Assembly: GCF_003334305.1 (NCBI RefSeq)
Contig: NZ_QOWS01000003.1
From: Escherichia coli
Lineage (GTDB): Bacteria; Pseudomonadota; Gammaproteobacteria; Enterobacterales; Enterobacteriaceae
Reading direction: 5' to 3' (one strand)
DNA length: 64,000 bases
A model generated the notes under the pieces. That model saw only the letters and a program-made list of their open reading frames with translations, did not search any database and was not told the DNA's origin. Position 1 is the first letter of the stretch; each line of letters opens with the position of its first letter. This document shows positions 24,061 through 25,754 of the stretch, piece after piece. The position numbers and the translations under genes were made by a program.

Positions 24061-24297
24061 ATGTTGCAACGTACGCTGGGCAGTGGCTGGGGAGTGTTGC
24101 TGCCAGGATTGCTGATTGCAGGGCTGATGTATGCGGATTTATCACCGGATCAGTGGCGGATTGTCATTCTGATGGGATTAGTATTGACGTCGGTGATGCT
24201 GTATCACAAACAGTTACGGCATTACGTTTTGCTACCATCGTGCCTGGCGCTTATTGCTGCCATCATGCTGATGATAATGAATTTGAATCAGGGATGA
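24061..24297 (+). CDS. yjjZ: small membrane protein
   Basis: 78 aa from MLQRTLGSGWGVLLPGLLIAGL…; ORF-track start is an upstream extension. Confidence 0.75.
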   Translation: MLQRTLGSGWGVLLPGLLIAGLMYADLSPDQWRIVILMGLVLTSVMLYHKQLRHYVLLPSCLALIAAIMLMIMNLNQG

Positions 24298-24335
24298 AAA
24301 ATCAAGGAAGAAACAAGAAAGGAAGTAAAGATAAT

Positions 24336-24422
24336 TGGTGCGAGGGGGGGGACTTGAACCCCCACGTCCGTAAGGACACTAACACCTGAAGCTAGCGCGT
24401 CTACCAATTCCGCCACCTTCGC
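24336..24422 (-). tRNA. leuV: tRNA-Leu (anticodon CAG)
   Basis: Reverse complement reads GCGAAGGTGGCGGAATTGGTAGACGCGCTAGCTTCAGGTGTTAGTGTCCTTACGGACGTGGGGGTTCAAGTCCCCCCCCTCGCACCA, 87 nt with long variable arm and encoded CCA. Confidence 0.92.
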
Positions 24423-24463
24423 ATACCATCAATTCTTAAAAAGAATTGCTACCACGGAGGCGC

Positions 24464-24491
24464 ATTCTAGTGGTTTTCAGCTTTTCGTCAA
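24464..24491 (-). promoter_or_regulatory. Sigma-70 promoter for tRNA-Leu
   Basis: On minus strand TTGACG-N16-TAGAAT followed by GC-rich discriminator GCGCCTCC, with A/T-rich UP-like sequence upstream; typical stringently controlled stable-RNA promoter. Confidence 0.6.
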
Positions 24492-24547
24492 TAGTTAATT
24501 ATCGCCGGAGGTGTAATTGCTGGAAAAATGTCCATCAGGAAACTAGC

Positions 24548-24710
<163 letters not shown>

Positions 24711-24722
24711 TCGGCGGGATAC

Positions 24723-25754
24723 TTAACCTTTCTTCGCCTGGCGGGTCATAATGGCGCGATACACCTTGAAGCGCCCGGTTTGCGCGATAACTTCATGGAA
24801 GCCAAATGTCTCATCCAGCACGTCCGGGTAAGGCAGGAAGGCGTTCGCTACAATTCGCAGCTCGCCGCCGCTATTAAGATGACGCACCGCGCCGCGAATC
24901 AGCGTTTGCGCCGCATCCAGGCTGGTTTGCATCCCATCGTGGAACGGCGGGTTGGAGATGATCATATCAAAACGACCTTTCACCTCGGAAAAGACGTTGC
25001 TGGCAAAGACTTCACCTTCAACACAGTTGGCCGCAAGTGTTGCGCGGCTGGCTTCTACCGCTGGCGCAGAGACATCGCACAAGGTGAGACGAATTTTCGG
25101 CGAATGGCGCGCAAAGGCAACTGAAAGCACCCCCGCGCCACAGCCGACATCCAGCACTTTACCTTTCGTGTGCGGAGTTAACGTCGAGAGCAGCAACTGG
25201 CTACCGACATCCAGACCGTCGCGGCTAAACACGCCAGGCAGCGTTTTGACCGTCAGGCCATCGACGCTGTATTCGCCCCAGAATTTATCGGCATCAAATA
25301 CCGGCTGTTTTTCCAGACGACCAAAATAGAGGCCACAGCGACGAGCGCTGTCGACTTTATTCAACGGCGCATAATCTGCCAGCATCTGCTCGGCGCTGCG
25401 CACGCCGCTGCGGTTCTCGCCAACGACAAAAATATCCGTCCCCACCGGCAGCAGAGAAAGTAAATTCATCAACTGGAACTGGGCTTCCGGTTTGTTCTTC
25501 GGCCAGTAGTAAATCAGCGTATCGCAATCTGCGACGTCATCCGCCGTGGCGACCAGACTGAAACGGGCGTTATCCCCCATCTGGCGGCTTAATACCTGCC
25601 AGTGGTGGAATTGCTGGGTATGAGCACGGCTGGCCGCGGTATCTAAACGCGCGGGCAGGTCATCCTGTAAGTCTCCGGCAAACAGAATACGGCTTTGTTC
25701 GAAATCATCACTGTGACGCAGCAAGACTTCACTTGCCGGGGTAAATGCAGACAT
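24723..25754 (-). CDS. rsmC: 16S rRNA (guanine1207-N2)-methyltransferase
   Basis: 343-aa ORF with SAM-binding motif (…[12 protein letters not shown]…NPPFH…). Confidence 0.9.

What the first reader, a model, noticed from the sequence alone, without database searches (positions are those of the whole stretch)
24298..24530. Single tRNA-Leu(CAG) where K-12 has three tandem copies
Only one 87-nt tRNA-Leu gene lies between yjjZ and rsmC, with its own TTGACG-N16-TAGAAT promoter and GC-rich discriminator. From memory, K-12 carries three tandem copies (leuQ, leuP, leuV) at this locus. This could be a real copy-number contraction by recombination between identical repeats, or an assembly collapse of identical tandem units.
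Basis: partly seen in the sequence, partly recalled or inferred. Interest (0 to 1): 0.35.

Follow-up and report, generated by a model that had tools for sequence, protein, structure and literature searches.

The report
One-copy variant of leuQPV tRNA operon
This E. coli carries one tRNA-Leu(CAG) gene where K-12 has three in a row; the same one-copy form is in about 8% of finished E. coli genomes, including O157:H7, so it is an ordinary, recurrent copy-number variant.

Summary
One 87-nt tRNA-Leu(CAG) gene lies at 24336-24422 (-) between yjjZ and rsmC. It has a TTGACG-16-TAGAAT promoter and a GCGCCTCC discriminator. K-12 MG1655 has three tandem copies at this locus. The window equals the K-12 operon minus 236 bp: it keeps the leuQ 5' flank, one gene identical to leuQ and leuV, and the leuV 3' flank. 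Recombination or slippage between identical 87-bp direct repeats would give exactly this.

The variant is neither rare nor new. Of 5426 complete E. coli genomes, 425 (7.8%) carry the one-copy junction, about 37 have two copies and about 4964 have three. Three closed genomes match the window 100% over 2 kb with one copy. At least 60 non-O157 closed genomes share the identical 207-bp junction. The one-copy state sits on at least five different flank haplotypes, including a K-12 laboratory derivative, so contraction looks recurrent.

Three copies behind the same promoter occur in 69 of 79 informative Enterobacterales species loci, so three is ancestral. Assembly collapse cannot be formally excluded without reads, but it is unlikely. 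The expected effect is a lower supply of the major CUG-decoding tRNA at fast growth. Interest is low.

The parts
24336..24422 (-). The single tRNA-Leu(CAG) gene, 87 nt. It is identical to K-12 leuQ and leuV. K-12 leuP differs at position 48 (C to T).
   Evidence: ARAGORN; Rfam RF00005, 48.5 bits; base-by-base comparison with K-12.
24464..24491 (-). Sigma-70 promoter: -35 TTGACG at 24491-24486, a 16-nt spacer, -10 TAGAAT at 24469-24464. It is identical to the promoter upstream of K-12 leuQ.
   Evidence: Promoter scan, 10 of 12. The alignment is invariant with K-12 from -35 to the tRNA. The same -35/-10/discriminator precedes tandem Leu(CAG) genes in many Enterobacterales.
24456..24463 (-). GC-rich discriminator GCGCCTCC between the -10 hexamer and the start site. 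This is the hallmark of stringently controlled stable-RNA promoters (established knowledge; control was not tested here).
   Evidence: Read directly from the sequence.
24423..24455 (-). 5' leader, removed by RNase P. The position of the transcription start is inferred, not mapped.
   Evidence: 41 nt lie between the -10 hexamer and the tRNA 5' end. RNase P processing of this operon is described in PMC2190699.
24298..24335 (-). 3' trailer, beginning CCA-AUUAUC, identical to the trailer of K-12 leuV. It is unstructured; the region has no intrinsic terminator.
   Evidence: Alignment; zero terminator-like sites; PMC2190699 lists the leuV trailer as CCAAUUAUC and describes an unstructured Rho-dependent terminator.
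24061..24297 (+). yjjZ (DUF1435, 78 aa), convergent with the tRNA gene. It is the left boundary of the locus.
   Evidence: Coordinates transferred from the STW0522-31 annotation, which is 100% identical here; ORF list.
24723..25754 (-). rsmC (16S rRNA m2G1207 methyltransferase, 343 aa), upstream of the tRNA promoter. It is the right boundary of the locus.
   Evidence: ORF list; annotation of matching genomes.
24545..24720 (.). REP/BIME repeat cluster between rsmC and the tRNA promoter. The window has one 33-nt REP unit more than K-12: the intergenic distance is 300 nt against 267.
   Evidence: Alignment gap of 33 columns; intergenic lengths; Rfam naRNA4 match at 24562-24644, 70.3 bits.

Best explanation
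This is the leuQPV tRNA operon of E. coli, contracted from three tandem tRNA-Leu(CAG) genes to one. The contraction is a real, inherited, 236-bp deletion. It arose by unequal homologous recombination or replication slippage between the identical 87-bp gene copies. What remains is a complete monocistronic unit: the strong, stringently controlled promoter, the leader, one gene, and the leuV trailer with its Rho-dependent termination region. It should still be transcribed and matured, with RNase P at the 5' end and exonucleases at the 3' end. It contributes one gene dose instead of three, so the genome is left with two tRNA-Leu(CAG) genes instead of four.

Shown here: the anatomy, the exact deletion product, the population frequency, the occurrence on several flank haplotypes, and the ancestral three-copy state. 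Inferred: the recombination mechanism, expression of the remaining gene, and the phenotypic effect. That effect would be less tRNA-Leu(CAG) at fast growth, costly in rich media and neutral or beneficial in poor media.
For: - **Anatomy.** There is one tRNA-Leu(CAG) gene, and K-12 has three at the same place. The alignment shows the window's upstream side identical to the leuQ upstream region and its downstream side identical to the leuV downstream region, with 236 bp missing. The remaining gene is identical to leuQ and leuV.
- **Frequency.** 425 of 5426 complete E. coli genomes carry the one-copy junction. The spacer-junction queries find 4985 and 4980 genomes, which implies about 4964 three-copy and about 37 two-copy genomes.
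- **Closest genomes.** Three closed genomes are 100% identical to the window over 2 kb with one tRNA-Leu, including the extra REP unit, and at least 11 more at 99.4-99.5% also have one. The best 25-kb matches have spans that fit one copy.
- **Recurrence.** The one-copy state sits on at least five flank haplotypes. One is ME8067, whose flanks are identical to three-copy K-12 (0 mismatches in 900). An intermediate two-copy form, MJ-T, has the STW0522-31 left flank, which is 1 mismatch in 900 from the window. TUM2820 (two copies) and NissleGFP_pZE21 (one copy) have identical flanks.
- **Ancestral state.** Three tandem genes follow the same promoter in 69 of 79 informative Enterobacterales species loci, including E. 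albertii.
- **Function.** No intrinsic terminator is present, as published for this operon (PMC2190699). A strain with leuVPQ deleted was built and grown, so it is viable; across the tRNA deletions tested, redundancy was beneficial in rich media and costly under nutrient limitation (PMC9981150).
Against: - No reads are available, so depth over the tRNA in this particular assembly is untested.
- The endpoints of the deletion lie inside identical sequence and cannot be mapped. RecA-dependent recombination and replication slippage therefore cannot be told apart.
- The window is at most 99.6% identical to any complete genome over 25 kb, so no closed genome of exactly this strain was compared.
- A few of the 'complete' one-copy records, such as the laboratory derivatives, could themselves be assembly errors.
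- Expression and tRNA level were not measured.
Confidence: 0.93

Rival explanations
1. Assembly collapse: the strain really has three (or two) tandem copies, and the assembler threaded through the repeat once and dropped the two short spacers.
For: The three units are nearly identical and the spacers are only 28 and 34 nt, so a low-k de Bruijn assembly could lose them. No reads could be examined. One species representative with a single copy, E. whittamii, is a draft at about 9x coverage, which shows such cases cannot be judged from sequence alone.
Against: The identical one-copy haplotype, including a linked extra REP unit, is present in three independently finished genomes at 100% over 2 kb. 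It is also present in at least 60 non-O157 finished genomes at the 207-bp junction. By inference, the 87-bp gene is shorter than ordinary reads and the spacers are unique, so collapse is mechanically unlikely. The contig also runs straight through a sequence that is repeated elsewhere in the genome (a second copy exists in relatives). That means the assembler resolved 87-bp repeats, and it would then also have resolved the array.
Confidence: 0.05
2. One copy is the ancestral state, and K-12 and most E. coli expanded the array to three.
For: Tandem arrays can grow by the same unequal recombination that shrinks them. Single copies exist in a few other species: Winslowiella iniecta, Xenorhabdus japonica and the E. 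whittamii draft.
Against: Three tandem Leu(CAG) genes follow the same promoter in 69 of 79 informative species loci across Enterobacterales, including E. albertii, Citrobacter, Klebsiella, Enterobacter, Pantoea, Erwinia and Dickeya. About 91% of complete E. coli genomes have both spacers. The K-12 derivative ME8067 has one copy on flanks identical to three-copy K-12.
Confidence: 0.02
3. The contraction arose de novo in this isolate, for example during laboratory passage, and was not inherited from a one-copy lineage.
For: De novo contraction appears to happen. ME8067 (K-12 background) has one copy, and NissleGFP_pZE21 has one where TUM2820, with identical flanks, has two.
Against: The window's 2-kb haplotype is identical to three unrelated-source closed genomes that already have one copy. 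Its nearest relatives at 99.4-99.6% also have one. Inheritance is therefore the simpler account.
Confidence: 0.05

Closest known systems
leuQ-leuP-leuV (leuQPV) operon of E. coli K-12
   Same: Same chromosomal position between yjjZ and rsmC. The promoter, discriminator and leader are identical, the 3' trailer is identical, and the remaining gene is identical to leuQ and leuV. Neither has an intrinsic terminator, as published.
   Different: One gene instead of three. Both intergenic spacers and the leuP allele (T at position 48) are absent. One extra REP unit lies upstream.
One-copy leu locus of E. coli O157:H7 (e.g. strain 86-24; many closed genomes)
   Same: A single tRNA-Leu(CAG) between yjjZ and rsmC, with the same junctions.
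   Different: A different flank haplotype: 22 mismatches in 900 nt on the left flank, and 189 nt instead of 300 nt between the tRNA and rsmC. It is most likely an independent contraction. O157 records show three genome-wide matches to the 207-nt query, whereas the window-like genomes show two.
Other tandem tRNA arrays with variable copy number in E. coli (e.g. glyVXY)
   Same: Identical tandem tRNA genes whose number differs between strains. McDonald et al. 2015 note arrays of three or four identical gly tRNA genes across E. coli (PMC4539685).
   Different: A different tRNA and a different locus. That paper, as far as the text search showed, does not discuss the Leu(CAG) array.
Engineered leuVPQ deletion in E. 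coli (Raval et al. 2023)
   Same: Reduces the Leu(CAG) gene dose at the same locus and gives the expected direction of the phenotype (PMC9981150).
   Different: The engineered strain removes all three genes. The natural variant keeps one, together with its promoter.

Membership tests
tRNA-Leu(CAG) gene (leuQ/leuV allele) | Cloverleaf with anticodon CAG and the long variable arm of a class II tRNA, 87 nt with encoded CCA | tested here: met
   ARAGORN calls tRNA-Leu (cag), 87 nt. Rfam tRNA model, 48.5 bits against a gathering score of 29. The sequence ends in CCA.
tRNA-Leu(CAG) gene (leuQ/leuV allele) | Sequence identity to the characterised K-12 genes | tested here: met
   87 of 87 identical to leuQ and to leuV; one difference from leuP.
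leuQPV operon (orthologous locus) | Position between yjjZ and rsmC, transcribed towards yjjZ | tested here: met
   Annotated K-12 and STW0522-31 regions; ORFs in the window.
leuQPV operon (orthologous locus) | The operon's own promoter (TTGACG-16-TAGAAT with discriminator GCGCCTCC) and leader | tested here: met
   Invariant with K-12 from upstream of -35 to the tRNA; promoter scan.
leuQPV operon (orthologous locus) | Three tandem genes separated by 28-nt and 34-nt spacers | tested here: not met
   One gene and no spacer. It is therefore a contracted allele of the operon, not the canonical three-gene form.
leuQPV operon (orthologous locus) | Unstructured trailer with Rho-dependent termination | tested here: inconclusive
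   The trailer is identical to that of leuV and no intrinsic terminator is found, which fits PMC2190699. Rho dependence itself cannot be tested in silico.
Assembly-collapse artefact | Excess read depth over the collapsed unit; reads containing the missing spacers | not testable with these tools
   No reads are available.
Assembly-collapse artefact | The collapsed form is absent from finished genomes of close relatives | tested here: not met
   The one-copy form is present in the closest finished genomes and in 425 of 5426 overall.

The most novel reading that the evidence does not exclude
The leuQPV array may be a recurrently contracting locus whose one-copy allele is favoured by selection in some lineages, such as O157:H7 and a cluster of commensal, animal and environmental strains to which this window belongs. 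The benefit would come in slow-growth or nutrient-poor niches, as the nutrient-dependent cost of tRNA redundancy measured in the laboratory would predict. On this reading it is not a neutral deletion. The evidence shows recurrence on at least five haplotypes and fixation in whole clades, but it says nothing about selection.
Probability: 0.2. Interest if true: 0.35.

Novelty: already known. Interest (0 to 1): 0.1.

Why it matters
It matters little for discovery. The one-copy allele is already present, and annotated, in hundreds of public finished genomes, and variation in tRNA gene copy number in E. coli is documented.

It has modest practical value in three ways:
- It is a reminder not to treat K-12's tRNA gene count as the species norm. 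Codon-adaptation or tAI calculations for such strains should use 2, not 4, Leu(CAG) genes.
- The locus is a simple natural marker of recombination between short direct repeats.
- The natural 1-, 2- and 3-copy series could be used to test ideas about the cost and benefit of tRNA redundancy.

Tried and rejected
- **Intrinsic terminator.** I looked for one after the tRNA and found none. This is not a defect: the K-12 operon is described as ending in an unstructured Rho-dependent terminator.
- **One copy as the ancestral state.** Rejected on the outgroup survey.
- **The one-copy state as a single clade marker.** Rejected, because it occurs on at least five flank haplotypes, including K-12's own.
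- **Withers et al. 2006 (RNA 12:933).** I tried to read it for an earlier description of this variant, but it is not held by DOI or by PMC id.
- **McDonald et al. 2015.** Its text has no hit for CAG or CUG, and 'Leu' matches only an author's name. I therefore found no paper that explicitly describes the contraction.
- **'NissleGFP_pZE21'.** The locus in this record does not resemble other listed genomes except TUM2820 and CEA212U. I therefore do not claim it shows a contraction within the Nissle lineage, only a one-copy versus two-copy difference on identical flanks.
- **Limits of the counts.** The figures for two-copy and three-copy genomes are derived arithmetically from three separate searches. 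They assume every multi-copy genome carries at least one recognisable K-12-type spacer.

Full report
**What is there**

ARAGORN finds a single tRNA gene in the whole 64-kb window: tRNA-Leu with anticodon CAG at 24336-24422 on the minus strand, 87 nt. Rfam's tRNA model agrees, with 48.5 bits against a gathering score of 29. On the same strand, 41 nt upstream of the mature 5' end, lies TTGACG-16 nt-TAGAAT at 24491..24464. It matches 10 of 12 consensus positions, the joint best promoter-like site in the region. GCGCCTCC follows it directly. The gene sits between yjjZ (24061-24297, +) and rsmC (24723-25754, -). A REP/BIME cluster lies between the promoter and rsmC and also matches Rfam naRNA4. No intrinsic terminator follows the tRNA.

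**Comparison with K-12**

The annotated K-12 MG1655 record has three tRNA-Leu genes between yjjZ and rsmC. In the alignment, everything from upstream of the -35 hexamer to the tRNA 5' end is identical to the region upstream of the first K-12 gene, leuQ. Everything after the CCA end is identical to the region downstream of the last K-12 gene, leuV. K-12 has 236 extra bases in between.

A base-by-base check shows that the window's gene is identical to leuQ and to leuV. K-12 leuP differs at position 48 (C to T). The two K-12 spacers are 28 and 34 nt. The window is therefore exactly what a crossover or slippage between leuQ and leuV anywhere within the 87-nt repeat would leave. For the same reason the endpoints cannot be mapped.

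**How common it is**

A 207-nt query, made of the tRNA plus 60 nt on each side, can be covered to 80% or more only by a one-copy locus. Multi-copy genomes reach 71%, as the listed rows show. It is so covered in 425 of 5426 complete RefSeq E. coli genomes.

Queries centred on the two K-12 spacers are covered in 4985 and 4980 genomes. Since 5001 genomes lack the one-copy junction, this implies about 4964 genomes with both spacers (three or more copies) and about 37 with only one spacer (two copies).

Many of the one-copy genomes are O157:H7. At least 60 others, from humans, baboons, dogs, cattle, goats, poultry and wastewater, have a junction 100% identical to the window. Each of them shows two genome-wide matches to the query, not four.

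**Is it real in this lineage?**

Over 2 kb centred on the locus, three finished genomes (STW0522-31, IZSBS22, KD0845) are 100% identical to the window and are annotated with one tRNA-Leu. At least eleven more at 99.4-99.5% also have one. The O111 group at 99.3-99.4% has three, and MJ-T has two. Over 25 kb the best matches, at 99.5-99.6%, have record spans that fit one copy. SMBL, C311, PapRG-06-3, STW0522-31 and IZSBS22 are annotated with one, and BEC1-S17-ESBL-07 is annotated with one.

The window also shares a linked feature with the 100% matches, as checked directly in STW0522-31.

I add one inference. The 87-nt gene is shorter than ordinary reads and the spacers are unique. The contig also passes through a sequence that has a second copy elsewhere in related genomes. 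An assembler that resolved that repeat would have resolved the array too. Without reads, collapse keeps a small residual probability, which I put at about 5%.

**Direction and recurrence**

I scanned one genome per species (GTDB representatives) for the promoter core TTGACG-N16-TAGAATGCGCCTCC. ARAGORN on the downstream sequence gives 79 loci that have enough downstream sequence and at least one Leu(CAG) gene:

| Tandem Leu(CAG) genes | Loci | Species |
|---|---|---|
| Three | 69 | E. albertii, the E. coli representative, Citrobacter, Klebsiella, Raoultella, Enterobacter, Kosakonia, Pantoea, Erwinia, Dickeya and others |
| Two | 7 | five Xenorhabdus species, one Erwinia persicina, one Pluralibacter MAG |
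| One | 3 | Winslowiella iniecta, Xenorhabdus japonica, a low-coverage E. whittamii draft |

. Three copies is therefore the old state and one copy is derived.

Within E. coli, the one-copy state sits on at least five different flank haplotypes:

| Flank haplotype | Mismatches per 900 nt against the window |
|---|---|
| Window / STW0522-31 type | 0-1 |
| NissleGFP_pZE21 | 12 |
| HS30-1 | 17 |
| O157:H7 86-24 | 22 |
| ME8067 (laboratory strain) | 38 |

ME8067's flanks, and its fhuF, yjjZ and rsmC protein accessions, are identical to those of three-copy K-12 MG1655. MJ-T has the STW0522-31 left flank (1 mismatch in 900 from the window) but two copies, and it retains the 28-nt spacer. TUM2820 (two copies) and NissleGFP_pZE21 (one copy) have identical flanks. 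The simplest reading is repeated, stepwise contraction at a locus prone to repeat recombination. A minority of these records could be assembly errors.

**How it works**

From established knowledge and the cited papers, not tested here:
- A promoter with a GC-rich discriminator is typical of stable-RNA promoters under growth-rate and stringent control.
- In K-12 the operon transcript is separated and matured at its 5' ends by RNase P.
- It ends in an unstructured Rho-dependent terminator that is trimmed by PNPase and RNase II. The leuV trailer is listed as CCAAUUAUC, which is the window's trailer (PMC2190699).

All of these elements are intact here, so the single gene should be expressed and processed normally, as a monocistronic precursor.

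The consequence is one of dosage. Window-like genomes have two Leu(CAG) genes rather than four, for the tRNA that reads CUG, one of the most abundant codons in E. coli (bioRxiv 10.1101/355404). Raval et al. built and grew a strain with leuVPQ deleted. Across the tRNA deletions they tested, redundancy was beneficial when nutrients were plentiful and costly under limitation, and the remaining copies did not compensate (PMC9981150). A preprint on range-expanding E. coli also reports indels in leuP, leuV, leuQ and leuT associated with larger colonies. Whether the natural one-copy allele is neutral or selected is open.

**Comparison with what is known, and verdict**

This is a contracted allele of the leuQPV operon. 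It meets every membership feature of the locus (position, promoter, leader, trailer, gene sequence) except the number of genes. The same allele is already deposited and annotated in hundreds of finished genomes, including O157:H7 strains. Variation in tandem tRNA gene number among E. coli strains is a documented phenomenon (PMC4539685; PMC7661048).

I found no paper that explicitly describes this particular contraction, and the most likely source, Withers et al. 2006, was not available. Even so, the finding is ordinary.

Noticed in passing
window 24545-24720 (Rfam hit 24562-24644, +): A REP/BIME cluster lies between rsmC and the tRNA promoter and matches Rfam naRNA4 (70.3 bits). The window has one 33-nt REP unit more than K-12. 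The rsmC-tRNA interval varies between strains: 300, 290, 267, 197 and 189 nt.
   Followed up: partly
L001 2008-2094 (K-12 leuP): In K-12 the middle gene, leuP, differs from leuQ and leuV by one base in the variable arm (position 48, T instead of C). In the two-copy strain MJ-T both genes carry C, so that array has lost the leuP allele.
   Followed up: partly
O157:H7 records, e.g. NZ_CP017249.1 (L123 is the leu locus): O157:H7 genomes show three genome-wide matches to the 207-nt tRNA query, although they have only one copy at this locus. Window-like one-copy genomes show two. I did not find where or what the third match is (an extra Leu(CAG) gene, or a tRNA fragment at an integration site).
   Followed up: no
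L083 (Escherichia whittamii Sa2BVA5, NZ_JACSQI010000001.1): The species representative of E. whittamii also shows a single Leu(CAG) gene behind a promoter with the same spacer as in E. coli. The assembly is a short-read draft at about 9x coverage, so this could be real or a collapse.
   Followed up: no
L018, L040, L065, L075, L098, L120 (Xenorhabdus species): Xenorhabdus species carry two tandem Leu(CAG) genes behind the conserved promoter, and X. japonica carries one. Copy number at this operon therefore also differs between genera of Enterobacterales.
   Followed up: partly
L125 (E. coli ME8067, NZ_CP028703.1 854004-856610): A K-12-background laboratory strain, with flanks and neighbouring protein accessions identical to MG1655, is deposited with one Leu(CAG) gene at this locus. 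This is either a contraction during laboratory history or an error in that assembly.
   Followed up: partly
PMC2190699, Table 1, against L001: The paper lists the 3' trailers as leuQ CCAAACGAG and leuP CCAAAAACC. In the K-12 record the promoter-proximal gene is followed by AAAACC and the middle gene by AACGAG, so the two labels appear to be swapped relative to gene order. This does not affect the conclusion.
   Followed up: no
L067, L073, L101, L122 (Pseudomonas / Pseudomonadales): The same -35/-10/discriminator pattern also precedes a tRNA-Val(GAC) gene in Pseudomonas-type genomes. It also occurs, without a nearby tRNA call, at contig ends in Ferrimonas, Marinobacter and Pontibacterium, possibly at rRNA or tRNA operon promoters.
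   Followed up: no
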